Shown here piece by piece: positions 10,051 to 53,268 of a stretch of 53,268 bases of DNA; position 1 is the stretch's first letter; every line of letters begins with the position of its first letter. The stretch is taken from the sequence record OR327751.1; one strand, written 5' to 3'. Origin of the DNA: Escherichia phage Ecp_YSF. The notes under the pieces are model-generated. The model made no database searches and was not told the DNA's origin. It worked only from the letters and a program-made list of their open reading frames with translations. A program made the translations under genes and the position numbers.

Positions 10051-10236
10051 ATGCGCACAATACAATGTCCTAACTGCCATTATGAAATTGCAGAAGATGA
10101 TTTCATAACGCAGCAATGTCCTATCTGTGATTCATACATGCCACTAAACCGCCTGTACTTAAAGGCCGATTCTGGTTTAGGCAGCATCATTCGCATCAAT
10201 CCCGTGCAAACTCAGCCATTAGTGGATTGTGATTAA
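10051..10236 (+). CDS. Small zinc-ribbon protein (61 aa)
   Basis: CPNCHYE ... CPICDS (two CxxC pairs); immediately upstream of terminase. Confidence 0.5.
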   Translation: MRTIQCPNCHYEIAEDDFITQQCPICDSYMPLNRLYLKADSGLGSIIRINPVQTQPLVDCD

Positions 10237-12274
10237 AAACAAAGAGAACGAATCAATGTCAAAGACTGATGACCTCGGACCGGAGTTTAATGATACAGTA
10301 GCCTCGTATCTTGCCAAGCACTACGGTGACGTATTAAAAGTCTCAAGAGAAAGATTCTGTATTCTATCTTTGCCATTGCTCCGTCGATATATTTCAGAAA
10401 ATACTGCAATAGTTGACAGCTATGAAGAACAAATTCAAGCAGAGTTAGAAGGCCAGGGTCTTGAAAACGATGCTGTATTGCGTTCCGTTTTCAGAGCACA
10501 ACTTGAGCGTCTTCGCTCTGGCGACAAGAAAGACTCGACTGCCTATGCAGATGAGTTGAAGAAAGGTATTCAAGCAGGTGTTACTGACCGTGTTGCAGGT
10601 TCCACATTAGAGGAGCCAAACTCGGAGCATGATAACACCGAGGAACTTGTAGACAAGATTCTGCATGACCCACATAACGTGGACCCAACTGTAATCCCTG
10701 CCAAGGTTGCAGAACGTGTTCGCAAAATCTTGATGAAAAGTTTCGAAGCCTTTGGTAAATGGCAGTTCCATATTCAGATGGGATTTCCATTTCAAGCACA
10801 AGACTTTCATGATGTAATATTCAGTGTTGGTCAGAAGGTTGTTGATGGTGAGATTGACCGCTTAATAGTGACCATTCCTCCACGACACTCTAAGACTCAG
10901 CTTATGAGTATTGCATTGCCCTTGTATTCATTTTGCCACAATGAATCGAGCCATAACATTATCACCTCGTATGCAGAAGACGTTGTTCTTGAATCGAGTG
11001 GTTACATCCGTGCTGTAATGATGGACCCACTGTTCCAACGAATATTCCCGAAGGTGAGAATCGACCCTAACAAACGTTCACTTGAACGCTGGGGTACAAC
11101 CAAAGCTGGAGTTATGCACGCAGTACCTACTGGTGGTAAGCTAACTGGTAAAGGTGCTGGACTTCTTGTTGCAAAATATTCCGGCTGTTTCGTGGTGGAT
11201 GACGTTATCAAGCCGAAAGATGCCTACTCTGACACAGTTCGAGCAGAAATCAACGACCGATTTGATAACACCTTTATGTCACGTCTTGCCAACGATGGTT
11301 GCATAACTGATTCGTACGGAAACCAAATTAAGTGTGCCCGTACACCAATGGTTATCATCATGCAGCGAGTTCATGACCAGGATTTAGTTGGTTACATACT
11401 CCGTGGTGGCTCTTCTGATAAATACCATTATCTCAATATCCCAGCGATTATTGAGAAAGGAGTTGGAAGTGCTGAGTGGTATGATAAGTTAATCAAGAAG
11501 CAGAACTACACTCATGCTATTCCCATTCTGTATAATTTGAACAGGAAGGAAGAGAAGTCTGCATTATGGCCTTCACGTAAGAGCTTAGAATCCCTGGAGG
11601 CAATGAAAGAGTCTAACCCATACACATACAATTCACAGTATGCTGGCGACCCATCTGCACAAGGCCACGGCCTTATCAAAGAAGATTGGTGGCAAGAGTA
11701 TGAGCCAGACGTTTTCGACAGAAGTCGCATAGTCAGAAGTTTTATTACAGCGGATACGGCATCAACTGCCAAATCCTATTCTGATTATTCGGTCCTTAAG
11801 CATTGGGGCGTGACTAAAGAGCGTGATGTTTATTGTTTAGATATTATGCTCGGTAAGTTTGAAACTCCAGAACTCAAGACTGCTATCATCGACTTCTGGA
11901 ACAAATGCAACAAGTTGGACTTGAAGTGTGTAGGCTGTATTCCTCGTGCATTGTACATGGAAGACAAGTCTGCCGGACAATTCTTGAACCAACAATTTAT
12001 CAGAGATGGGAGTGTCCGAGTTTTACCATTGCCTCGTGATGGGATTAATGGTAATGACAAGGTAACTCGATTCCTTAACGCAATCCCATATTTCTCACAA
12101 AAGAGAATATTCTTCCCTGCTGGTCATGAACACATCGACCACGTTAGACGTGAAATACTTGGATTCACTTCTTTGGGTAGTGGTACTGGACACGACGATT
12201 GTGTCGATAACGTTTCAGATATGGTTGCAATCGAATTCTCAGGCCCAAGTGCCAACTACTCCGCATGGATGTAA
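10229..12274 (+). CDS. Terminase large subunit
   Basis: ATPase motifs IPPRHSKTQ (Walker A-like) and GCFVVDD (Walker B); C-terminal nuclease-like region with ITADTAST and GHDDCVD. Start ambiguous (GTG 10229 or ATG 10256). Long N-terminal extension of about 190 aa. Confidence 0.75.
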   Translation: MIKNKENESMSKTDDLGPEFNDTVASYLAKHYGDVLKVSRERFCILSLPLLRRYISENTAIVDSYEEQIQAELEGQGLENDAVLRSVFRAQLERLRSGDKKDSTAYADELKKGIQAGVTDRVAGSTLEEPNSEHDNTEELVDKILHDPHNVDPTVIPAKVAERVRKILMKSFEAFGKWQFHIQMGFPFQAQDFHDVIFSVGQKVVDGEIDRLIVTIPPRHSKTQLMSIALPLYSFCHNESSHNIITSYAEDVVLESSGYIRAVMMDPLFQRIFPKVRIDPNKRSLERWGTTKAGVMHAVPTGGKLTGKGAGLLVAKYSGCFVVDDVIKPKDAYSDTVRAEINDRFDNTFMSRLANDGCITDSYGNQIKCARTPMVIIMQRVHDQDLVGYILRGGSSDKYHYLNIPAIIEKGVGSAEWYDKLIKKQNYTHAIPILYNLNRKEEKSALWPSRKSLESLEAMKESNPYTYNSQYAGDPSAQGHGLIKEDWWQEYEPDVFDRSRIVRSFITADTASTAKSYSDYSVLKHWGVTKERDVYCLDIMLGKFETPELKTAIIDFWNKCNKLDLKCVGCIPRALYMEDKSAGQFLNQQFIRDGSVRVLPLPRDGINGNDKVTRFLNAIPYFSQKRIFFPAGHEHIDHVRREILGFTSLGSGTGHDDCVDNVSDMVAIEFSGPSANYSAWM

Positions 12275-13805: not shown

Positions 13806-14838
13806 CGACGAAGATACCGTGAATGAAGTAGTTTTGTTGAACGACAAGGCTACTTTGACGACCCGTCGTTTACGTGACTCTGGCGAGATGATTGCAGAAT
13901 GCACCATCGCTCGTACTGGCATTATGCTGTACAAGGCGAAAGAACTTGGTGAAATCGCAAAACATCTAGACCCAGAATCTATTTGCCGTGTTCGTACCAA
14001 GCCGGAAGTATTATTTGACGAAGCAACCATCGAAGGCTGTCGTTCAATTCCGGTAACTATCGGCCATCCGAAAAATGATGTTAACATCAAGAACAACAAA
14101 GAACTCCAGAAAGGGTTCATCGAAGGGCGTCCAGTTGCAGACGGTTCTTTCTTGGCTGCATCAATCGTTTTGAATGACGAGCAAGCTATTCGATTAGTTG
14201 ATTCTGGTGTTGACCAAATCTCCTTGGGCCATAATGCCGAACTGGCTGTATCAGAAGATGATGAAGCCGACTTCGATAAAGTTCGCATTATCCCTAACCA
14301 TGCTGCAATTGTTGTTCGTGGTCGTGCTCAGACTACTCGCATTGGTGACTCTGGTGAAGAGATTGCCATTGTTGATAAGGCAACCTTTGACGTTGTTGAA
14401 GCAGAGCGTGATGCAGCGCTTGACAAGATTAGCGTCCTTGAACAGAAACTTGCTGATGCAGAAACTGCACGACTATCCGATGAAGCTATCCAGGCTGAGG
14501 TAGACAAACGTGTAGTTGCTCGTACAGCATTGCTTGTTGATGTGGCCCGTCTTGGCGACGAGTTCTCCAACCTCGATTTCTCCGGCAAGACCGATGCGGA
14601 AATTAAGTTGGCTGTAGTTAATAAATTGCATGACAAGGATTTCAGCGATAAGAGCGAAGACTATATCTCCGCCCGTTTCGATGCAGCTCTTGAAGATTGC
14701 GATTCCATTACTTTGGGAGATGCCCTGAATCAGTCTATGCAATTCTCTGCTAAGAAAGATTCAGAAGCTCGTAAACCTAAAGTTTCTATTTCCGAAGAAG
14801 CTAACAAACGTCGTTTAGAACGCTTCAACTCTTTATAA
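13774..14838 (+). CDS. Head scaffolding / head morphogenesis protein
   Basis: C-terminal half is charged and coiled-coil-like (LEQKLADAETARLSDEAIQAEVDKR). Start ambiguous: track ORF begins 13678 inside portal; GTG 13774, GTG 13819 or ATG 13888 are possible. Confidence 0.45.
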   Translation: MKQNQNLVQLNDEDTVNEVVLLNDKATLTTRRLRDSGEMIAECTIARTGIMLYKAKELGEIAKHLDPESICRVRTKPEVLFDEATIEGCRSIPVTIGHPKNDVNIKNNKELQKGFIEGRPVADGSFLAASIVLNDEQAIRLVDSGVDQISLGHNAELAVSEDDEADFDKVRIIPNHAAIVVRGRAQTTRIGDSGEEIAIVDKATFDVVEAERDAALDKISVLEQKLADAETARLSDEAIQAEVDKRVVARTALLVDVARLGDEFSNLDFSGKTDAEIKLAVVNKLHDKDFSDKSEDYISARFDAALEDCDSITLGDALNQSMQFSAKKDSEARKPKVSISEEANKRRLERFNSL

Positions 14839-14847
14839 GGTAAGACA

Positions 14848-15321
14848 ATGCCAAAGCAAGATTGGTCTATTAATACTGGTGAAGCATATGCAGGTGAACA
14901 ATATGGCCTGGCTACCACCAACTCCCAGCGCCTGACCTACGTTGCCGAAGAAGAAATGGCAAACTTTGGTCTGGCTGTTGTTCAAGGTACAGCTTCTAAT
15001 CAGGTTAAACCTGGTATTGGTTCTGATGGCACTGTTCTGGGCATTACCATGCGCCAGATTAATATCGAATCCGCTACTCGTCCTGGTGACGGTACTGTTG
15101 CAATCAAAGTTGGCTGGCCTCTGGGTGTTATGCTGTCTGGCCCAATCATGGTCAAACTGAAAACTGCAATCACCGACAAGAACATTGGCGTATCCACTAA
15201 AGGCGAATTTGGCGGTGTTGGTGCTGGGTATACTAAAGCAACCAACCTGACTGCCCTGCGTTATCCGGCTTCCGCTGGCGATGTTGTCCCGGTCATGATT
15301 AACGTAGTCCCAAAGCCGTAA
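14848..15321 (+). CDS. Small head protein (putative decoration protein), zero-frame product
   Basis: 157 aa, Gly/Val-rich, immediately upstream of major capsid gene; ends 4 nt after a CCCAAAG slippery heptamer. Confidence 0.5.
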   Translation: MPKQDWSINTGEAYAGEQYGLATTNSQRLTYVAEEEMANFGLAVVQGTASNQVKPGIGSDGTVLGITMRQINIESATRPGDGTVAIKVGWPLGVMLSGPIMVKLKTAITDKNIGVSTKGEFGGVGAGYTKATNLTALRYPASAGDVVPVMINVVPKP

Positions 15322-33958: not shown

Positions 33959-34469
33959 GTATGAAGGGTTTGTTGAGAATACGAACCTGACTGAAAGCCA
34001 ACAAGTGCTCAGGGACGAGCACAAGATTCTATTCGGATGCGATAAGAATGGAACATGTTGGTATAAAATTCGTGAGTCTTTAAAGGACGGTACAGCCAAA
34101 GTTGTATACGAAAATGATGGGACTATTCGACACATTGACTTTGGTCCTGGCGATACTGTGGCTACACCGCTGGGTGGAAACATAGTTGAGCTGGAGTCAC
34201 TGCCAGAGGGTGTCGAAGAAAACAGACACTTTTGGAAGTTTGATGGTGAGAAGTTTGTCGAGCATAAAGAAAACCGTGTGAAATATAACGAGTTTATGCG
34301 TAAGAAGAAACTTGCACCATTGACGGAAGAAATTGGCATTCTCACCGACATGGTTGAGCTTGGTATGGCCAAGAAGTCTGACAACGAACTGCTTGTTAAA
34401 CTTAAGAAGAAGCGTATCAAACTGTCTCAACTCGACCTAACCGAAACAATCGACTGGAATGAATTCTAA
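33927..34469 (+). CDS. Tail fibre assembly chaperone candidate
   Basis: 180 aa directly after fibre genes, charged C-terminal half; overlaps fibre gene end. Confidence 0.35.
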   Translation: MEHGMTAILCKYEGFVENTNLTESQQVLRDEHKILFGCDKNGTCWYKIRESLKDGTAKVVYENDGTIRHIDFGPGDTVATPLGGNIVELESLPEGVEENRHFWKFDGEKFVEHKENRVKYNEFMRKKKLAPLTEEIGILTDMVELGMAKKSDNELLVKLKKKRIKLSQLDLTETIDWNEF

Positions 34470-34810
34470 TGGATAGACAAACTTTCCAGATGATTTGGGA
34501 AGCAATGCACCAATACGGCGTTTGGCATGGGCTGTTGGCTGGACTGACAGCCTTAATCCGTGGTGCATATGAGAGTGAGGGTTTAAGCAAAGCGTTGCTG
34601 GATGCGACGCTATGCAGCTTAATCGGCCTGTTTGCATTTCAGGTCGCAGGTACATTTGAAACTTTCACAACTAACGTCACTATGCAGTTGGTGTTAGCTA
34701 TTGTGATTGGCGTCATTGGTGCCAACCTCATTATCACAACTGTCAGGGAAAGTTTCTCTGGCGCAATCAAACAACTTAATCCTTTGACGTGGTTCAAGAA
34801 GGCACGATGA
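34469..34810 (+). CDS. Holin candidate
   Basis: 113 aa with about three hydrophobic segments and charged C-terminus; immediately upstream of hydrolase. Confidence 0.5.
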   Translation: MDRQTFQMIWEAMHQYGVWHGLLAGLTALIRGAYESEGLSKALLDATLCSLIGLFAFQVAGTFETFTTNVTMQLVLAIVIGVIGANLIITTVRESFSGAIKQLNPLTWFKKAR

Positions 34811-34827: not shown

Positions 34828-35382
34828 ATGTTATCATTCAAAGTCCTTGCACTTCTGACAGCTTTAGTTCACATCAACGCCCCAGCTTCGGTTGGGGCAG
34901 TGAATTCTGCTATTACAGATTTTGCAAGTCACTCTTATTTAAATGGAAGTCTGAAACTATCTTCTTCACAACGCAAAGAGCTAGAATGCTATACTAAAGT
35001 TATCTGGTATGAAGCTCGCGGAGAAGACAAACATGGAAAGATTCTGGTAGCTAATGTCGTCCGTAATAGAACTAAGTTCGGGAAGCCATTCGCTAACACC
35101 GTTTGTGATGTTGTCTATCAACGCAATCAATTTGCATGGACACGAGAAGCAAAGAAGAAGAATGCTCAATGGAAGCATGTAGCAAAGATTAATTATGCCA
35201 CAGAACAACAACAAGTTCTGGACACCATTAATGTTGCAATCTCTTTTGTACTATTCAATCAACCCTCTGTCACCAAAGCAACCCACTTTTGTACAGCATC
35301 GGAGAAGTGCAACTTCAAGAATGTTAAAGGTTTGGGACGTTATGGTGGCCATAAATTCTATGAGTATCTAGGAAATCTGTAA
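34828..35382 (+). CDS. Endolysin candidate: SleB/CwlJ-like cell-wall hydrolase with N-terminal signal peptide
   Basis: N-terminus [24 protein letters not shown] is signal-like; motif [24 protein letters not shown]. Confidence 0.6.
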
Positions 35383-37115: not shown

Positions 37116-39056
37116 ATGATTACTATCACCACTCAAACTATCAAATCTGTTGTTCCTGCTATCACTGCTCTGGTATACCGTGCCAAAGAGAAGCAGAACT
37201 ATATGCAGCCTCAGACTTGTGCTATTGCTGCCCTAGCCATATTCAAGATGATGACGTCTTTCACTCGTGATGACGTTGTTCCTGCCATTGCGATGGTTGA
37301 GCTGGCTTCTGCTTCTATTGCTGATGCCAACCGCTACAACAACGATTTGAAAGCAATGCACTATGTTGACCCAGCTATCAACCTCATTGGTTTGGCTAAG
37401 CACTTTGGCTTCATCACCATGAACGAAGACAAGTCATTCCAGCAAACTGACACATGGGTTGAACTGGTTACAACCAAAGACACAGCAGTGCCATTCACTG
37501 AGCGTGTTACATCTGAATCTCGTCGCAAGCCTTTCGTTAAAGGTGGCAAAGTTAAGCCATCCAAAACTCTGAAAGCTGCAATCGAATTCCTGCAAGATAC
37601 TGAGTACCATGTGGAGACTGAGATGGTTCGCATCATCCAGTCCATGCTTGAGCAACGTACTTATGGTGGCTTGCAGATGCCAGAAGCAATCCAAACTGAA
37701 CTCCATGTTTGGAACAATGCTGTAGCAATGATGAATCAGGATAAGCTGTATTCTGACTACTTTGCTGATAACCGTGGTCGTCTGTATCATGTAGCATGTG
37801 CTGGTCCTAACCCACAATCCTCTGACTTTGCTCGTTGCTTGTATTCTCACAATGTTGAGAACATCGTTAAGAAGTTTAACGAAGATGGTTCTACTACCAT
37901 TGCATACAACATGTTCATGGCAGAGCTGGAAGATATTTCCGGTGGTGAATGGTGCAGTGCTAAGCGTTTAACTTATGTTGCTCAGAATCCAGCTGGTTCA
38001 CTTGCTCGCATGATGAACATGCCTAAAGCTGAGCGTCCTTCTAAGCCATTCACTTATGTTCGTCTGGCTCTGGATTGGTTCAAGTTTGAGACTACAGGTG
38101 AATGCGATTCTCGTGTAGGCTTTGGCTTAGATGCTAAATGTTCTGGTACTCAATATCTGGCATTCATTGCTGGTAACATGGAAATGGCTCGTGCAACAGG
38201 TCTGGTTGATTCTGAGACTAAAGCATCTGACCCATACCAGTTGAGTCTTCGTGAACTGTTGAAGCTGCTGGACAAGTCTTCAATGAAACCATCTCCTGAA
38301 ATTATGGATGAATTCTTGAATCCGAAAGCTGGTCGTAAGTTTATCAAAACTCCATACATGGCTATCCAATATGGTGGTGGTAAAGCTGCACTAACTGGTT
38401 CTTCTGACTTTATCTCCTACATGACAGAAGCTCTCCAGATTCCTATGGAGAAAGCTGAGGCATTTGCTGAACTGTGTGTAGAAGCAATCCATAACGCATT
38501 GGGTGCTAAGATTAACATGTTCATTGAGAAAGCTGCTGATGCTGCATACAACCGTTGTGTTGAACTTGGTAAAGAGTACATCACATACCGTCACACTGAT
38601 GGTCAGGTTGTAATGAAGCCTTGCTTCCCATCTCGTGAAATCTGTGAGGCATTCAGCATTCGTGTTGACTCCCAAACTCGTGTTATCTTTGGTCAGATTC
38701 AGGAGAATAAGCCTTGGACCATTCGTGAATCCAATCCAACTAAAGAAGAATTCAAGCGTACTTTCGTTGTTAACTACATTCAAGGTATTGACGCACTGGT
38801 TGCTCGTACTGTTGCAGTTAAAGCTAAAGAAGCTGGTCTTCGTGGCTTTACTTCAATTCACGATTGTTTCCGTTGCTGCTTAGCTGATGCTCCACGTATG
38901 ATGGAAGTTATTCGTGCAGCATATGTTGAAATCTTCGTAACCAACAATCAATTCGAGAATCTGTCTAAGCAACTCGGTGGCATTCAGATGTATCATGAGA
39001 ACATCGTAACCGAAGAGCTTCTGATGAGCGAACACGCTTACTACTTCTGTCAATAA
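37116..39056 (+). CDS. Single-subunit DNA-dependent RNA polymerase (T7-like catalytic core, compact 646 aa)
   Basis: Motif A-like LDAKCSGTQYLAF; motif B-like RKFIKTPYMAIQYGGGKA; motif C-like FTSIHDCFRC; RBS GGAGAC before ATG. Confidence 0.75.
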   Translation: MITITTQTIKSVVPAITALVYRAKEKQNYMQPQTCAIAALAIFKMMTSFTRDDVVPAIAMVELASASIADANRYNNDLKAMHYVDPAINLIGLAKHFGFITMNEDKSFQQTDTWVELVTTKDTAVPFTERVTSESRRKPFVKGGKVKPSKTLKAAIEFLQDTEYHVETEMVRIIQSMLEQRTYGGLQMPEAIQTELHVWNNAVAMMNQDKLYSDYFADNRGRLYHVACAGPNPQSSDFARCLYSHNVENIVKKFNEDGSTTIAYNMFMAELEDISGGEWCSAKRLTYVAQNPAGSLARMMNMPKAERPSKPFTYVRLALDWFKFETTGECDSRVGFGLDAKCSGTQYLAFIAGNMEMARATGLVDSETKASDPYQLSLRELLKLLDKSSMKPSPEIMDEFLNPKAGRKFIKTPYMAIQYGGGKAALTGSSDFISYMTEALQIPMEKAEAFAELCVEAIHNALGAKINMFIEKAADAAYNRCVELGKEYITYRHTDGQVVMKPCFPSREICEAFSIRVDSQTRVIFGQIQENKPWTIRESNPTKEEFKRTFVVNYIQGIDALVARTVAVKAKEAGLRGFTSIHDCFRCCLADAPRMMEVIRAAYVEIFVTNNQFENLSKQLGGIQMYHENIVTEELLMSEHAYYFCQ

Positions 39057-49548: not shown

Positions 49549-50223
49549 ATGTCTTATCATGATGATGACAAAGAGATTGCACTATCAACGTGTAAGCAAT
49601 GGCTCAATGATAATGATGCCGTCTATCTTGCCAAGGAAGATGTTATCATTATGTGGGTCCATTTTAATCCAGAATCGAAGCGCGGTGAGTGGCAACGCTA
49701 CAAGATGAAAGAGGCTTGTCGCATAATTAAAGCCACACGCGCTGGCTTCTCTGCTATGAAATACATCAAGCCAGAGATGCTGATGCTTGCTGCACAGGAA
49801 GAAGAACGTGCATATAAGCAAGCTGTTAAATCTCGTTCAACTGTTCCTCCAGAGTTCTTTAATTTGGAGCGCGCTGGACACTTCAACAATTTAGAAATGT
49901 TGACACTGTGCCTGTTGCAAGAATTAGTTGGAAGAGGACAAAACATTGAAGCTGTTTGTCTTGGAGAACTTATGAAAGAGTTGTTCTCGGCAAAGGGCTT
50001 TGCTGTGCCAAATCGAACTTTACGCTGGAAATTGTTGCGAGCAGTCGCTCAAGAAGCTGGTGTAGTTGTTCGTGACAGAACAAACCGACTCACTGTAACT
50101 GGAGTTGGGCGTTTTGTAGCAATCCAGATTGAGGGTTATGACGAATCAATCATCACTGAACTCACTGTCGATGAGACAAAGGATTTAGTAAATAAAACAC
50201 TAGAACGATTCAATAGATACTGA
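49549..50223 (+). CDS. Hypothetical protein (224 aa)
   Basis: ATG-initiated; no recognised motif. Confidence 0.5.
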   Translation: MSYHDDDKEIALSTCKQWLNDNDAVYLAKEDVIIMWVHFNPESKRGEWQRYKMKEACRIIKATRAGFSAMKYIKPEMLMLAAQEEERAYKQAVKSRSTVPPEFFNLERAGHFNNLEMLTLCLLQELVGRGQNIEAVCLGELMKELFSAKGFAVPNRTLRWKLLRAVAQEAGVVVRDRTNRLTVTGVGRFVAIQIEGYDESIITELTVDETKDLVNKTLERFNRY

Positions 50224-50247: not shown

Positions 50248-50272
50248 CTGAAACATTAGTTGGATGTGGAAA
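50248..50272 (+). promoter_or_regulatory. Conserved phage motif copy i
   Basis: CTGAAACATTAGTTGGATGTGGAAA. Confidence 0.4.
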
Positions 50273-50685: not shown

Positions 50686-50726
50686 GTTGCCGATGGCAAA
50701 CTTGAGAGACTAAGCTAAATCGATCT

Positions 50727-50757
50727 GGCATGCACTGGGAGATCTGCCAGTGCTGCC
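50727..50757 (+). other. Stable hairpin downstream of last small gene
   Basis: GGCA-t-GCACTGG (8-nt loop) CCAGTGC-t-GCC; no U-tract. Confidence 0.35.
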
Positions 50758-51583
50758 TTGAATCCCATTCCAGAGTGAGTGGGCTTCAATGAGCATTCTT
50801 GTGATTAGAGTTGGGAGGTAGGCCGATGCCCAAGCTCGTGGCCCAGACAAGAGTGTTCATTGAAGTAGTTTTCTGAGTCTTACGACGGGCCTAAACTGCC
50901 TGGAGTTATTGCGACTGTTTTATTCATTTAAAATAAATGCAAATGATTCTGAAATGCGAGTTGCGGCTTAATTAAATTTAAGTCCTCTCCGTGGTCTTCC
51001 AATCCCACGTAACCAAATTTGGCGCATTGTGGCTTCGAGATGTGATTAATAAATCGGAGCAATAATTAATTTGTATTCTGCGATGCAAAGCAGGCTTAAG
51101 TCCTCCAGTGCGCGTGGGGATGTGACAGAGTACAAACTTAATTATGCAGTTGGATATTTCTAGAGGACGGACGAGCACACTGGAATGTCTTCAATTGGTT
51201 TAGTGTGAGAAGCTATGCCAATTTGAAACGTAACTCCTTGGGGAAGTGCTCCTCTGGATTTCCCTCCACACAGGAATCTCAAGCCTGTGGCAGCGACTTC
51301 GAAGCTGCACTGCGTAACCTAATTCACCCTAAAGTGAGTTGCCCTGAGCATGGAAATAAACTGCTCTAACCGATGGTATCTACAAAGGTAGATTAAATCA
51401 GGTTGCCTGTTGGTACTTGGGTTCAACACCTGCTTGCACTCGCAAAGTAGTGCCTCGTACCTGAGATGAAGTGAGTCGGGACCATCAATCCCACGTTATG
51501 TCAAAACACAGTAGGCGACTCACAGATTCTACAAGCCTCGCAGTTCGGGAAAACCTGCGTTATCAAAACCCCCCCCTCAATTT

Positions 51584-51676
51584 GGACGAGTAGCTCAGAA
51601 GGTCTGCTCCAGAGCTTAGTCAGGTAGAGCAATCTGTTCGACAGATGTGTCGTTGGTTCGAATCCAACCTCGTCCA
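51584..51676 (+). tRNA. tRNA-like gene, possibly type II (Leu-CAG-like), with atypical D region; CCA encoded at 51677-51679
   Basis: Acceptor GGACGAG / CTCGTCC; T-arm GTTGG-TTCGAAT-CCAAC; candidate anticodon arm 51614-51630 with loop GTCAGGT; variable-arm hairpin ATCTG-TTCGA-CAGAT; D region does not fold canonically by hand. Confidence 0.45.
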
Positions 51677-51706
51677 CCAACTCTCAATAATAAACATGGA
51701 GTCCTT

Positions 51707-51847
51707 ATGGACATTGATGCACTAGACAATTTGGACTTCGGTGCTGCCGAAGAAGCAATTGAAGAACTCAAGAAAAAGCAGGACGAAGAAGCAATCGTTC
51801 CTGGTGCTGGCGATAACGACTGCTCAAGTGGTGCGTGCGCCATCTAA
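51707..51847 (+). CDS. Small acidic protein (46 aa)
   Basis: RBS GGAG before ATG 51707. Confidence 0.35.
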   Translation: MDIDALDNLDFGAAEEAIEELKKKQDEEAIVPGAGDNDCSSGACAI

Positions 51848-51855
51848 GGTGATTT

Positions 51856-52092
51856 ATGCAACAGCTTAAATCAATAATTCTTGGCGTCCTGACTGCATTT
51901 GGTATTATCATTGCAGTGTTCCTCAAAGGCAAAAGCTCAGGCAAAGCCGAGGAGCGTCAGGAAGCCACAGAGAAGCAACTAGATTCATTAAAAGAATCTA
52001 TCGAGATTAAATCGCATGTTCAGAAAGAAGTGTCTAGCAGTTCTGATAGCAATGTCGATAGTGAGTTGCTCTCAAAGTGGGTTCGTAAGTGA
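51856..52092 (+). CDS. Small membrane protein, i-spanin-like topology
   Basis: N-terminal TM segment IILGVLTAFGIIIAVFL followed by charged helical region. Confidence 0.4.
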   Translation: MQQLKSIILGVLTAFGIIIAVFLKGKSSGKAEERQEATEKQLDSLKESIEIKSHVQKEVSSSSDSNVDSELLSKWVRK

Positions 52093-52225
52093 TTATTGCT
52101 TAATTGCACAACCAATCTATTTGGATGTTGCAGAAGTGAAAATCTTATCACGCGAAACCAAAACACAGATTTTAGTCCACAATGAAACGTGGGCACAAAA
52201 GTGTTCGAAACTTACCCGACAGTGA
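52016..52225 (+). CDS. Putative lipoprotein, o-spanin-like, overlapping the upstream gene in another frame
   Basis: MFRKKCLAVLIAMSIVSC has lipobox-like IVSC; ORF overlaps 3' end of 51856-52092. Confidence 0.3.
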   Translation: MFRKKCLAVLIAMSIVSCSQSGFVSDYCLIAQPIYLDVAEVKILSRETKTQILVHNETWAQKCSKLTRQ

Positions 52226-52546
52226 GTGAACATGGCCTAGCTAGTTGGTGGTGTAAAGACTGACCAAGGTGACGACAGCCAAAGTCGAGGGAGTGCGCGA
52301 CTTTAAATAACGAGACTCTAGCCACTTGTGGTATGGCAGGTGTAACTCCTGCAATTGCTCTGGGCATAACAATTAAAATTGCTGCCTCGTATTGAACGCG
52401 AGAAAGTTCAGGTGGTCACTTCCTAGAACAGTGTCCGAGAACACACTCGCCAAAGTGCTTGAGAACGTTAGCTCTGTCTTGCCAGCATTAATGGCACGTT
52501 GGCCGCGTAAAGGCCGCAACCTCAATCATATATAAGGTAGTCTTCT

Positions 52547-52747
52547 ATGGACAAAATTAGCATTCGTGCAATCATTCGTAACGCAATCATTAATAATGAG
52601 GTGCGTACATATCAGTATCAAGAAATTCAGGTAGCTCTAGGTTGTAGCCGACATAAGGCAAAGCAACTTTATTACGCATTTCTGTATAACGCAGGGGATG
52701 CATTTCTTCGCAAGAAGTTGACAGAACCTGATAGCGACCCTTGTTAA
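52547..52747 (+). CDS. Hypothetical protein (66 aa)
   Basis: ATG with AAGGTAG upstream. Confidence 0.45.
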   Translation: MDKISIRAIIRNAIINNEVRTYQYQEIQVALGCSRHKAKQLYYAFLYNAGDAFLRKKLTEPDSDPC

Positions 52748-52789
52748 TCATCACAGCGTCTGGCCAACGTATCGGCCGCCAAATTCAAT

Positions 52790-52857
52790 GGGATTTTCGT
52801 ATGTACGGGCTTGACCGTGGTGAAACGACCTGACTGGTTCGATTCCAGTGAATCCCA
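52790..52857 (+). ncRNA. tRNA-like acceptor/T-arm element
   Basis: GGGATTT pairs with GAATCCC; T-arm ACTGG-TTCGATT-CCAGT; intervening region does not form a cloverleaf by hand. Confidence 0.3.
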
Positions 52858-53127
52858 CGAACAATGGATTCGTAGAGTTAATTAAACCTGCACGATGGGA
52901 TAGGGATGAAGCATCCGAGGCCGACTGTGTAATTGTGAACTTATCGTTCACCGAATCCACCAAATACCCGGGAGAAAGTGCTGTGGACGATATTGTATCG
53001 TAGGTGGTCGCATTCCACCCTCCCAACTCTTACCAAACAGTTATGCCTCTGTTCAAAAGGCTCAAGAGAGCGTCTGGCATACCGTAGCGATACGGCTTAG
53101 TTGCGCTGATTGTGTTGTGCAGAAAGA

Positions 53128-53268
53128 AAGTTCAGGCTTTCGTTTGGGTTACTCCTCATCCCGAAGTTAGCTGGATTCAAAATCCAGACTATGTTCCTAT
53201 ACACATGAAATATGCAAGTCGAGGGTTCTTAATGTTCAAACATGATGCGAGCATTGAGCGGGTTTATA
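53128..53268. repeat. Right copy of direct terminal repeat; identical to 1-141
   Basis: Exact 141-nt identity with window start. Confidence 0.9.

What the first reader, a model, noticed from the sequence alone, without database searches (positions are those of the whole stretch)
51856..52225. Candidate overlapped spanin-like pair far from the holin-endolysin cassette
Gene 51856-52092 encodes an N-terminal TM helix followed by a charged helical segment (i-spanin-like topology). Overlapping its 3' end in another frame, ORF 52016-52225 begins with a lipoprotein-like signal ending in IVSC (o-spanin-like). The lysis cassette at 34.4-35.4 kb has no obvious spanin, so this separated pair might provide outer-membrane disruption. 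The i-spanin candidate is short (78 aa) and the o-spanin candidate is not Pro-rich, so this is tentative.
Basis: inference. Interest (0 to 1): 0.45.

Follow-up and report, generated by a model that had tools for sequence, protein, structure and literature searches.

The report
Known overlapped spanin pair, Chaseviridae phage
The two small overlapping genes are a real and conserved inner-membrane/outer-membrane "spanin" pair, of the kind that breaks the bacterial outer membrane at the end of phage infection, but this exact pair was catalogued in 2018 for the near-identical phage phiEcoM-GJ1, so the finding is correct but ordinary.

Summary
Both ORFs exist as described: 51856-52092 (78 aa) and 52016-52225 (69 aa, +1 frame, 77-nt overlap). 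The first has one N-terminal transmembrane helix and a charged tail. The second has a signal peptide, the lipobox S-I-V-S-C18, and Ser at +2.

They match PHROG families annotated "Rz-like spanin": phrog_1026 (2e-20) and phrog_1275 (1e-17). Both frames are intact in 13/13 related genomes, and substitutions in the o-only part favour third codon positions.

Homologues of both proteins lie directly after the endolysin gene in lambdoid phages mEp390 and HK639, in Pseudomonas phage AF, and in two metagenomic contigs.

The window is a Carltongylesvirus (Chaseviridae), about 95% identical to phiEcoM-GJ1 relatives. The SpaninDB tables of Kongari et al. 2018 list the phiEcoM-GJ1 homologues as an overlapped two-component spanin: 78 aa, 69 aa, 77-bp overlap. 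UniProt names the Mangalitsa and PP101 homologues "O-spanin".

The position far from the holin-endolysin genes is real. It is shared by the four other Chaseviridae genera examined and has precedents in T4 and T7.

Function has not been tested experimentally. Novelty: already known. Interest: low.

The parts
51856..52092 (+). i-spanin gene (78 aa): N-terminal transmembrane anchor and a charged, predicted helical periplasmic domain with no Cys
   Evidence: ORF. phrog_1026 'Rz-like spanin' at 2e-20, full length. BLASTP 2e-11 to PM1 and 6e-08 to mEp390 i-spanins. Homologue listed as i-spanin in SpaninDB.
51874..51930 (+). Coding region for the transmembrane helix of the i-spanin (residues 7-25)
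   Evidence: Kyte-Doolittle 19-residue mean 2.41. Substitutions among relatives here are I/V/L/F exchanges.
51846..51852 (+). Shine-Dalgarno-like AAGGTGA 3 nt upstream of the i-spanin ATG, overlapping the stop codon of the upstream 46-aa ORF
   Evidence: Read directly from the sequence.
52016..52225 (+). o-spanin gene (69 aa precursor, 52-aa mature lipoprotein), +1 frame relative to the i-spanin
   Evidence: ORF. phrog_1275 'Rz-like spanin' at 9.8e-18. 70 homologous 50%-identity clusters at E<=0.001, two of them long multi-stretch proteins and the rest 42-118 aa. BFVD top fold matches are named O-spanin. Listed in SpaninDB.
52016..52092 (+). 77-nt dual-coding overlap: conserved i-spanin C-terminus (VQKEV...D..VD.EL..W.R) in frame 0, and o-spanin residues 1-26 (signal peptide, Cys18 and the first mature residues) in frame +1
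   Evidence: Lowest variability of the three zones: 6/77 variable sites against 22/160 and 16/133. Same 77-bp overlap reported for phiEcoM-GJ1.
52067..52069 (+). TGC codon of Cys18, the predicted lipid-modified first residue of the mature o-spanin (lipobox S-I-V-S-C, +2 Ser)
   Evidence: Sequence. Lipobox pattern match. Cys invariant in 52/52 family members, and none of the 45 pattern-matching members has Asp at +2.
34469..34810 (+). Holin, the functional partner that acts upstream in the lysis pathway
   Evidence: Pfam Phage_holin_3_1 at 2.1e-08 and phrog_126 at 2e-18.
34828..35382 (+). Endolysin (SleB-like cell-wall hydrolase) with a hydrophobic N-terminus; its action would release the spanin complex
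   Evidence: Pfam Hydrolase_2 at 8.8e-16 and phrog_938 at 4.2e-20. N-terminal sequence.
50255..50270 (+). Nearest upstream phage-RNA-polymerase promoter-like site (ATTAGTTGGATGTGGA), probable start of the transcript carrying the spanins (inferred)
   Evidence: Matches 'putative phage promoter 7' of the phiEcoM-GJ1 record. 11 matches in the window against 1.9 expected. No + strand terminator-like site between 50600 and the spanin genes.

Best explanation
The two genes encode a two-component spanin of the overlapped architecture. The steps below are inferred unless marked otherwise.

- The 78-aa protein inserts in the inner membrane through its N-terminal helix and projects a helical domain of about 55 residues into the periplasm.
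- The 69-aa protein is exported, lipid-modified on Cys18 and cleaved by signal peptidase II.
- The two periplasmic domains bind through their C-terminal parts and bridge the envelope through the peptidoglycan mesh.
- Once the holin (34469-34810) has triggered and the endolysin (34828-35382) has degraded the peptidoglycan, the complexes are free to move and change shape. They then fuse or rupture the outer membrane, which completes lysis.

The genes sit in the early/middle region, between the host-takeover genes and the replication genes. They are probably transcribed by the phage RNA polymerase from the promoter-like site at 50255. Early production would be harmless, because spanins are inert while the cell wall is intact.

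What is shown here: the ORFs, the sorting signals, purifying selection, family membership and the genomic association with endolysins elsewhere.

What is inferred: membrane topology, lipid modification, complex formation, expression timing and the membrane-disruption step.
For: - ORFs and signals.
- Full-length hits to phrog_1026 and phrog_1275, both annotated 'Rz-like spanin'.
- The same two families cover pairs placed directly after the endolysin in mEp390 (holin-holin-endolysin-Rz-Rz1), HK639 and Pseudomonas phage AF.
- Two distant metagenomic loci show Peptidase_M15_3 or CHAP, then an uncalled TMD protein, then the lipoprotein, with overlaps of 77 and 83 nt.
- Both frames are intact in 13/13 close relatives, with third-position bias in the o-only zone.
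- Conservation across the family: Cys18, Cys28 and Pro33 are invariant in all 52 members, and Ile34, Asn56 and Cys63 are nearly invariant.
- 45/52 members fit a strict lipobox pattern, and none of those has Asp at +2.
- The AlphaFold2 model of the o-spanin has mean pLDDT 86. Its top BFVD matches are 'O-spanin' of Mangalitsa and PP101 and 'Putative o-spanin' of Myduc.
- The SpaninDB tables list phiEcoM-GJ1 as 'ovl', i-spanin 14724-14961 and o-spanin 14884-15094, 77-bp overlap, i-spanin coiled coil at residues 26-58.
- The mechanism follows the established lambda Rz/Rz1 model as summarised in PMC6139136.
Against: - I found no experimental test of this spanin family; no lambda Rz/Rz1 complementation or deletion phenotype turned up in the literature searches.
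- There are no Pfam or NCBIfam hits, so the pair does not belong to the lambda Rz (Phage_lysis) or Rz1 sequence families.
- The i-spanin has no Cys, unlike lambda Rz.
- The genes are not next to the holin-endolysin pair in this phage. The separation is about 16.5 kb in window order and roughly 35 kb in the phiEcoM-GJ1 linear order (estimated).
- The Shine-Dalgarno element for the o-spanin is weak (GAG about 10 nt upstream).
- The orientation of the i-spanin in the membrane was not predicted with a dedicated tool.
Confidence: 0.85

Rival explanations
1. The lipoprotein, with or without its membrane partner, is a superinfection-exclusion or receptor-masking factor. It would resemble T5 Llp or the Cor lipoproteins and be made early to block the phage receptor, and it would not be a lysis protein.
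For: The genes lie in the early/middle region, far from the lysis genes. This region carries exclusion-type cargo in a relative: a T4 Imm-like gene in Mangalitsa. The product is a small outer-membrane lipoprotein with two further conserved Cys, a description that also fits Llp (own knowledge).
Against: There is no hit to any exclusion or defence family in Pfam, PHROGs or PADLOC. The lipoprotein gene is always paired with the same TMD-protein family. In unrelated phages that pair follows the endolysin directly. It is conserved as core synteny in five Chaseviridae genera, not as variable cargo.
Confidence: 0.05
2. Only the 78-aa gene is real. The +1 ORF is a by-product, and the downstream 130 nt are non-coding. 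Many public annotations imply this by omitting or truncating the second gene.
For: The o-spanin is missing or truncated in many records: absent in phiEcoM-GJ1 RefSeq, JL1, SKA49 and Faunus; shortened calls starting after the i-spanin stop in MLP1, DE15, FXie-2024a and Pel53; a 57-aa form in Ecp_YSF. Its ribosome-binding site is weak.
Against: The frame is intact in 13/13 genomes, and substitutions in the o-only zone favour the third codon position. 70 homologous clusters were found in a 1.84-billion-protein library. In the 52 that were aligned, the lipobox Cys and motif residues are invariant. Truncated starts would remove the signal peptide. Kongari et al. document exactly this gene-caller bias: 196 o-spanins unannotated and 64 with the wrong start.
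Confidence: 0.03
3. The pair is a degenerate or accessory spanin. Outer-membrane disruption in this phage would depend mainly on another, unrecognised factor such as a disruptin-like peptide (as in phiKT) or the endolysin itself.
For: The pair is among the shorter spanins, with about 107 periplasmic residues in total. It is uncoupled from the lysis cassette. No experimental data exist.
Against: Purifying selection acts on both genes. The pair is conserved across Chaseviridae genera and no second spanin candidate appears anywhere in the window. Its length lies within the published range of 62-300 residues.
Confidence: 0.07

Closest known systems
phiEcoM-GJ1 overlapped two-component spanin (SpaninDB; Kongari et al. 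2018, PMC6139136) and its annotated orthologues: Mangalitsa gp37/gp38, vB_Shi_2KOFFS, BSBP01, PYps23T 'Rz1-like protein'
   Same: 98% nucleotide identity over the 370-nt locus. Same lengths (78 and 69 aa), same 77-nt overlap, and the same genomic position downstream of the tRNA-like element and a few hundred to about 2 kb upstream of thymidylate synthase, depending on the record.
   Different: A few conservative substitutions in the transmembrane helix and one in the C-terminal tail of the o-spanin. Nothing of functional note.
Cassette-located spanins of the same sequence families (phrog_1026 / phrog_1275): mEp390 gp51/gp52, HK639 gp70/gp71, Pseudomonas phage AF gp21/gp22
   Same: Homologous i- and o-spanins, 30-38% identity. 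Short i-spanin of 82-91 aa. Lipoprotein with three conserved Cys and the C..(K/Q)PI...TK..I..HN..W...C motif. Overlapped architecture.
   Different: In those phages the pair follows the endolysin directly in a classical late lysis cassette. Here, and in the other Chaseviridae examined, it is detached and lies at the early/replication boundary.
Lambda Rz/Rz1, the prototype two-component spanin
   Same: Type II membrane protein plus outer-membrane lipoprotein, encoded in two frames of the same DNA. Presumed C-terminal interaction and release after peptidoglycan breakdown (model summarised).
   Different: No detectable sequence similarity (no Pfam Phage_lysis or Rz1 hit). Overlapped, not embedded. 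The i-spanin is half the length and lacks Cys. The o-spanin is predicted to be a compact helical domain with 1 Pro in 52 residues, whereas Rz1 is unstructured and Pro-rich (10 Pro in 40).
T4 PseT.3/PseT.2 and T7 gp18.5/18.7 spanins
   Same: Precedents for spanin genes that are not adjacent to both other lysis genes. T7, like this phage, encodes its own RNA polymerase (own knowledge; T4 family noted).
   Different: Unrelated sequence families. T4's pair has the separated architecture and T7's the embedded one. In T7 the spanin is still a late gene near the holin.

Membership tests
Two-component spanin (functional class, criteria of Summer 2007 / Kongari 2018) | i-spanin: small protein with a single N-terminal transmembrane domain (type II, N-in/C-out) | tested here: inconclusive
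   A single strong hydrophobic segment at residues 7-25 (KD 2.41) is present. Orientation was not predicted with a dedicated tool and is inferred from the homologues.
Two-component spanin (functional class, criteria of Summer 2007 / Kongari 2018) | i-spanin periplasmic domain mainly alpha-helical or coiled coil | not tested
   Not computed here. SpaninDB tables for the 97%-identical phiEcoM-GJ1 protein give 35 of 55 periplasmic residues helical and a coiled coil at residues 26-58.
Two-component spanin (functional class, criteria of Summer 2007 / Kongari 2018) | o-spanin: outer-membrane lipoprotein signal (signal peptide, lipobox Cys, no Asp at +2) | tested here: met
   MFRKKCLAVLIAMSIVS-C18-S fits the PROSITE-type pattern and has Ser at +2. 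The Cys is invariant in 52/52 relatives, and 45/52 pass the strict pattern.
Two-component spanin (functional class, criteria of Summer 2007 / Kongari 2018) | o-spanin gene embedded in, overlapping, or immediately following the i-spanin gene | tested here: met
   77-nt overlap in the +1 frame. Erwinia phage Faunus and a metagenomic relative have the same pair with only a 4-nt ATGA overlap.
Two-component spanin (functional class, criteria of Summer 2007 / Kongari 2018) | At least one periplasmic Cys available for intermolecular disulfide bonds | tested here: met
   The o-spanin has Cys28 (invariant) and Cys63 (at least 90% conserved), and 44 of 45 mature chains have exactly three Cys. The i-spanin has none.
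Two-component spanin (functional class, criteria of Summer 2007 / Kongari 2018) | Required for outer-membrane disruption; complements lambda Rz/Rz1 defects | not testable with these tools
   Needs genetics and microscopy. No published test of this family was found.
PHROG phrog_1026 (i-spanin) and phrog_1275 (o-spanin) | Significant full-length match to the family HMM | tested here: met
   2e-20 (profile positions 4-84 of 85) and 9.8e-18 (4-73 of 81). The cassette-located pairs of mEp390, AF and PM1 hit the same two models.
Lambda Rz / Rz1 sequence families (Pfam Phage_lysis PF03245, Rz1 PF06085) | Match to the Pfam model above the gathering score | tested here: not met
   Neither model appears for either protein even at E<=1. 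The pair is analogous to lambda Rz/Rz1 and shows no detectable homology to them.
Unimolecular spanin (T1 gp11 type) | [quoted passage not shown] | tested here: not met
   The 69-aa lipoprotein has no hydrophobic segment after the signal peptide. Its C-terminal half is polar (ETKTQILVHNETWAQKCSKLTRQ).
Superinfection-exclusion lipoproteins (T5 Llp, Cor) and anti-phage defence proteins | Match to a family model | tested here: not met
   No such family appears in the Pfam, PHROGs, NCBIfam or PADLOC scans.

The most novel reading that the evidence does not exclude
The phrog_1026/phrog_1275 pair may be a mechanistically distinct 'minimal' spanin. It has about 107 periplasmic residues in total and a Cys-free i-spanin. 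Its o-spanin is a compact helical domain with two conserved Cys, where lambda Rz1 has an unstructured proline-rich chain. In the Chaseviridae examined the pair has been moved out of the late lysis cassette into a middle transcription unit, so the envelope would be pre-loaded with spanin long before holin triggering. If the expression timing or the fusion mechanism really differs from the lambda model, that would be a new variant of spanin biology.
Probability: 0.15. Interest if true: 0.35.

Novelty: already known. Interest (0 to 1): 0.1.

Why it matters
It matters little for discovery. The pair completes the expected holin-endolysin-spanin set of a Gram-negative phage and was catalogued in 2018.

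Its practical value is for annotation. In many public Chaseviridae records the o-spanin is missing or starts too late, which removes its signal peptide. This appears to include the record the window probably comes from, where a 57-aa 'hypothetical protein' is called. The i-spanin is mislabelled 'endolysin' or 'L-alanyl-D-glutamate peptidase' in several records.

The family has no experimental characterisation and no solved structure. Its small size makes it a convenient test case for how short a spanin can be.

Tried and rejected
- Pfam, NCBIfam and PADLOC scans of both proteins gave nothing significant.
- The word-indexed protein search found only near-identical proteins for both queries, because o-spanin genes are rarely called and the proteins are short. 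The exhaustive representative search was needed to see the family.
- A sequence search of solved structures and a Foldseek search of the PDB found no relative.
- tblastn with the i-spanin found only Carltongylesvirus-level relatives. More distant homology needed the PHROG profile and pairwise BLASTP.
- The sigma-70 promoter and terminator scan around the locus was at background level.
- The original phiEcoM-GJ1 genome paper (PMC2223254) is not held.
- The Myduc and Mangalitsa genome announcements say nothing about lysis genes.
- I considered and rejected a unimolecular spanin (no C-terminal TMD), a second spanin near the holin/endolysin (none found), and an exclusion lipoprotein (see rival explanations).
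- I could not measure the Cys28-Cys63 distance in the model, because model coordinates are not exposed.

Full report
**1. The observation**

The two ORFs are in the sequence exactly as described. ORF 51856-52092 is on the + strand, starts with ATG and encodes 78 aa. ORF 52016-52225 is on the + strand, starts with ATG and encodes 69 aa. The second starts 160 nt into the first, so it is read in the +1 frame and shares 77 nt with it.

A good Shine-Dalgarno sequence (AAGGTGA, 51846-51852) precedes the first ATG. Only a weak one (GAG about 10 nt upstream) precedes the second.

The 78-aa product has one strongly hydrophobic segment at residues 7-25 (Kyte-Doolittle 19-residue mean 2.41). The remaining tail is rich in K, E, S and D and has no cysteine.

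The 69-aa product begins MFRKKCLAVLIAMSIVS-C18-SQ. This fits a PROSITE PS51257-type lipobox pattern. Ser at +2 is the residue type that allows Lol-dependent sorting to the outer membrane in E. coli, whereas Asp at +2 would retain the protein in the inner membrane (established knowledge).

I ran the same pattern over all 2168 ORF/start combinations of at least 30 aa in the window. It returned only six other hits at four sites. None of those has a family match, and those I placed lie inside larger ORFs in another frame or strand.

**2. What the window is**

The region is 92-98% identical to Carltongylesvirus genomes of the family Chaseviridae, subfamily Cleopatravirinae. These include phiEcoM-GJ1, vB_EcoM_JL1, ST32, flopper and Mangalitsa.

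A 57-aa protein identical to residues 13-69 of the o-spanin is recorded on a 53,268-bp contig as 'hypothetical protein [Escherichia phage Ecp_YSF]'. That contig length equals the window length, so the window is probably that genome.

Every gene identified below is on the + strand. In window order they are:
- thymidylate synthase (585-1235)
- primase/helicase
- DNA polymerase
- terminase (10229-12274)
- portal, then the virion genes
- tail-fibre assembly protein
- holin (34469-34810)
- endolysin (34828-35382)
- ribonucleotide reductase small subunit
- T7-like RNA polymerase (37116-39056)
- small early genes, including an anti-restriction protein
- a tRNA-like element
- the spanin pair

In the conventional phiEcoM-GJ1 orientation the RNA polymerase comes first and the spanin pair lies at 14.7 kb.

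**3. Evidence that both genes are real**

Both frames are open and full length in 13 of 13 Carltongylesvirus genomes that I extracted.

There are 44 variable sites in the 370-nt locus. The dual-coding zone is the least variable: 6 of 77 sites, against 22 of 160 in the i-only zone and 16 of 133 in the o-only zone.

In the stretch read only in the o-frame, 11 of 16 variable sites are third codon positions and none are second positions. Codon changes there are 10 synonymous and 6 non-synonymous. That is the signature of a translated frame.

The overlap pairs the most conserved part of the i-spanin (C-terminal motif VQ.EV...D..VD.EL...W.R) with the least constrained part of the o-spanin (its signal peptide). 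This is a sensible arrangement for two genes sharing DNA.

**4. Evidence for what they are**

- *Family hits.* The 78-aa protein matches phrog_1026 (2e-20) and the 69-aa protein matches phrog_1275 (9.8e-18). Both matches are full length and both families are annotated 'Rz-like spanin'.
- *Cassette context in known phages.* The same two families cover gene pairs in lambdoid phage mEp390 and Pseudomonas phage AF. HK639 carries an equivalent annotated pair, whose lipoprotein matches the window's o-spanin by tblastn. In all three phages the pair sits directly after the endolysin in a classical lysis cassette.
- *Cassette context in metagenomes.* In two distant metagenomic contigs the lipoprotein gene follows a Peptidase_M15_3 or CHAP hydrolase gene after a gap of about 180-190 nt. 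Each gap holds an uncalled ORF with an N-terminal transmembrane helix and the same C-terminal motif. Those ORFs overlap the lipoprotein gene by 77 and 83 nt.
- *Family size and conservation.* An exhaustive search of 1.84 billion representative proteins found 70 clusters at E<=0.001. Two are long multi-stretch proteins and the rest are 42-118 aa. In an alignment of 52 members, Cys18, Cys28 and Pro33 are invariant. Ile34, Asn56 and Cys63 are nearly invariant.
- *Lipoprotein signals across the family.* 45 of 52 members pass the strict lipobox pattern, and none of those has Asp at +2. The median mature length is 50 residues. 44 of 45 mature chains have exactly three Cys. Median proline content is 4%.
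- *Predicted structure.* AlphaFold2 on that alignment gives mean pLDDT 86, and above 95 for residues 31-60. It predicts the signal helix followed by a small helical domain with helices at 26-30, 38-43 and 46-67.
- *Fold matches.* The best BFVD matches are 'O-spanin [Escherichia phage Mangalitsa]', 'O-spanin [Pectobacterium phage PP101]' and 'Putative o-spanin [Proteus phage Myduc]'. No solved structure resembles the model.

**5. Already known**

The supplementary tables of Kongari et al. 2018 (BMC Bioinformatics 19:326, PMC6139136) list phiEcoM-GJ1 as follows:
- architecture 'ovl'
- i-spanin at 14724-14961
- o-spanin at 14884-15094
- 77-bp overlap
- i-spanin of 78 aa with a coiled coil at residues 26-58
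- o-spanin of 69 aa
- periplasmic domains of 55 and 52 residues, 64% and 42% helical

These are the orthologues of the window's genes, at 98% nucleotide identity. In the main text the o-spanin is grouped with PM1's, and the i-spanin is listed as a singleton.

RefSeq names gp31 of phiEcoM-GJ1 'Rz-like spanin'. Both genes are annotated as spanins in Mangalitsa, vB_Shi_2KOFFS, BSBP01, PM1 and Myduc.

Its two reservations dissolve. Combined periplasmic lengths of two-component spanins range from 62 to 300 residues. Several o-spanin families, T4's among them, lack proline-rich regions.

**6. The detached position**

The separation from the holin-endolysin pair is real, and no alternative spanin lies near those genes.

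It is not peculiar to this genome. The pair occupies the same slot, after the early genes and before thymidylate synthase and primase/helicase, in PM1 (Suwonvirus), Myduc (Myducvirus), Faunus (Faunusvirus) and a metagenomic relative. tblastn places it at a similar coordinate in 4HA13 and SSEM1.

Within the family the architecture varies. The genes overlap by 77-80 nt here and in Myduc, but only by a 4-nt ATGA in Faunus and the metagenomic contig.

The last phage-RNA-polymerase promoter-like sites upstream are at 49923 and 50255. The motif ATTAGTTGGAWGWGGA has 11 matches in the window against 1.9 expected. No + strand terminator-like site lies between 50600 and the spanin genes.

I therefore infer that the spanins are transcribed by the phage polymerase together with gp29 and the tRNA-like element, earlier than or independently of the late lysis genes. 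Under the established model this is tolerable, because spanin complexes are held inactive by intact peptidoglycan. Scattered lysis genes are familiar from T4 and T7 (own knowledge).

**7. Mechanism and rivals**

The best explanation is a two-component spanin acting as in the lambda model (confidence 0.85). The steps are inner-membrane anchoring of the 78-aa protein, lipid modification and outer-membrane sorting of the 69-aa protein, formation of a complex across the periplasm, and outer-membrane disruption after endolysin action.

Shown here are the signals, the selection, the homology and the association with endolysins. The biochemical steps are inferred.

The rivals are an exclusion-type lipoprotein, a spurious second ORF, and an accessory role with some other factor doing the outer-membrane work. 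The pairing, the cassette context in other phages, the conservation and the absence of any competing candidate make each unlikely. Only genetics can exclude them.

**8. Verdict**

Novelty is 'already known' and interest is low (0.1).

The residual value is as an annotation correction. There is also a small chance that this minimal, Cys-poor, non-proline spanin family, expressed outside the late cassette, differs mechanistically from lambda Rz/Rz1.

Noticed in passing
window 51587-51683 (+): A tRNA-like element lies just upstream of the spanin operon. It has a 7-bp acceptor stem (GGACGAG/CTCGTCC) followed by ACCA and a canonical T-arm (GTTGG-TTCGAAT-CCAAC). It also has about 24 extra nucleotides in the D region, and a 15-nt hairpin (ATCTG-TTCGA-CAGAT) where the anticodon arm should be. 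ARAGORN finds nothing in the window but calls the homologous element tRNA-Leu(cag) in phiEcoM-GJ1 and SKA49. Rfam tRNA scores 27.9 bits, below the gathering score of 29. The GJ1 record says 'tRNA-Arg, may contain an intron', and the Mangalitsa paper reports 0 tRNAs. JL1 differs in the hairpin loop (TTAGG). PYps3T lacks window 51572-51682 altogether.
   Followed up: partly
window 51707-51847 (+): A 46-aa acidic ORF (MDIDALDNLDFGAAEEAIEELKKKQDEEAIVPGAGDNDCSSGACAI) sits immediately upstream of the i-spanin, and its stop codon lies inside the i-spanin's Shine-Dalgarno sequence. An ORF of the same size, position and C-terminal D-C-x3-C-x-I motif precedes the spanins in Myduc (gp32), Faunus (gp31) and a metagenomic relative. 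It has no Pfam, PHROG, NCBIfam or PADLOC hit. Whether it belongs to the lysis function is unknown.
   Followed up: partly
window 50700-51640, 52230-52540, 52750-53268: ORF-poor stretches flank the spanin pair and are 81-98% conserved in relatives. The 'gp30' ORF of phiEcoM-GJ1, called 'endolysin' in PYps3T, is split by a frameshift near 51366 in the window, so it may not be a gene. Only weak, probably chance, tmRNA-like Rfam hits fall at 50864-51026. A T-arm-like GGTTCGATTCC occurs at 52837-52847. The nature of these conserved non-coding stretches is unexplained.
   Followed up: partly
window 52519-52751, and 51145-51332 relative to Mangalitsa: The neighbourhood is mosaic. The segment carrying ORF 52547-52747 (66 aa, phrog_9565, unknown function) is absent from phiEcoM-GJ1 and Mangalitsa but present in JL1 and PYps3T. 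Mangalitsa carries a T4 Imm-like 'immunity to superinfection' gene between the equivalents of 51145 and 51332. DE15 and vB_Shi_2KOFFS have an HNH endonuclease directly after the o-spanin, which shortens its C-terminal tail.
   Followed up: partly
public records homologous to window 51856-52225: Public annotation of the pair is inconsistent. The i-spanin is labelled 'endolysin' (PO103-1, PYps23T, PYps4T, PYps16T, PYps16N) or 'L-alanyl-D-glutamate peptidase' (Pel53), although I found no hydrolase domain in the window's orthologue. The o-spanin is absent from the phiEcoM-GJ1 RefSeq, JL1, SKA49 and Faunus records. It is truncated to start after the i-spanin stop in MLP1, DE15, FXie-2024a and Pel53, and is called as a 57-aa protein in Ecp_YSF.
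   Followed up: yes
L008 (PP952070.1, 'Staphylococcus phage Pel53'): A Chaseviridae genome recorded with host Staphylococcus hyicus carries this Gram-negative-type spanin pair. Its i-spanin is 82% and its o-spanin 97% identical to the window's. An outer-membrane lipoprotein spanin makes no sense in a Gram-positive host, so the host label is doubtful.
   Followed up: no
window 34828-35382 (+): The SleB-like endolysin (Pfam Hydrolase_2) has a hydrophobic N-terminus, [24 protein letters not shown]. This suggests a secreted or signal-anchor-release (SAR) endolysin, not a cytoplasmic one, although it sits next to a lambda-S-type holin (Phage_holin_3_1).
   Followed up: no
L018 2465-2701 (Erwinia phage Faunus) and L019 753-992 (metagenomic contig): In these relatives the same spanin pair is in the 'separated' architecture, with a 4-nt ATGA overlap. 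The Faunus o-spanin has a proline-rich linker (CQSPPAVPPTK) that the window's protein lacks. The family therefore spans both architectures. The Faunus o-spanin is unannotated in RefSeq.
   Followed up: partly
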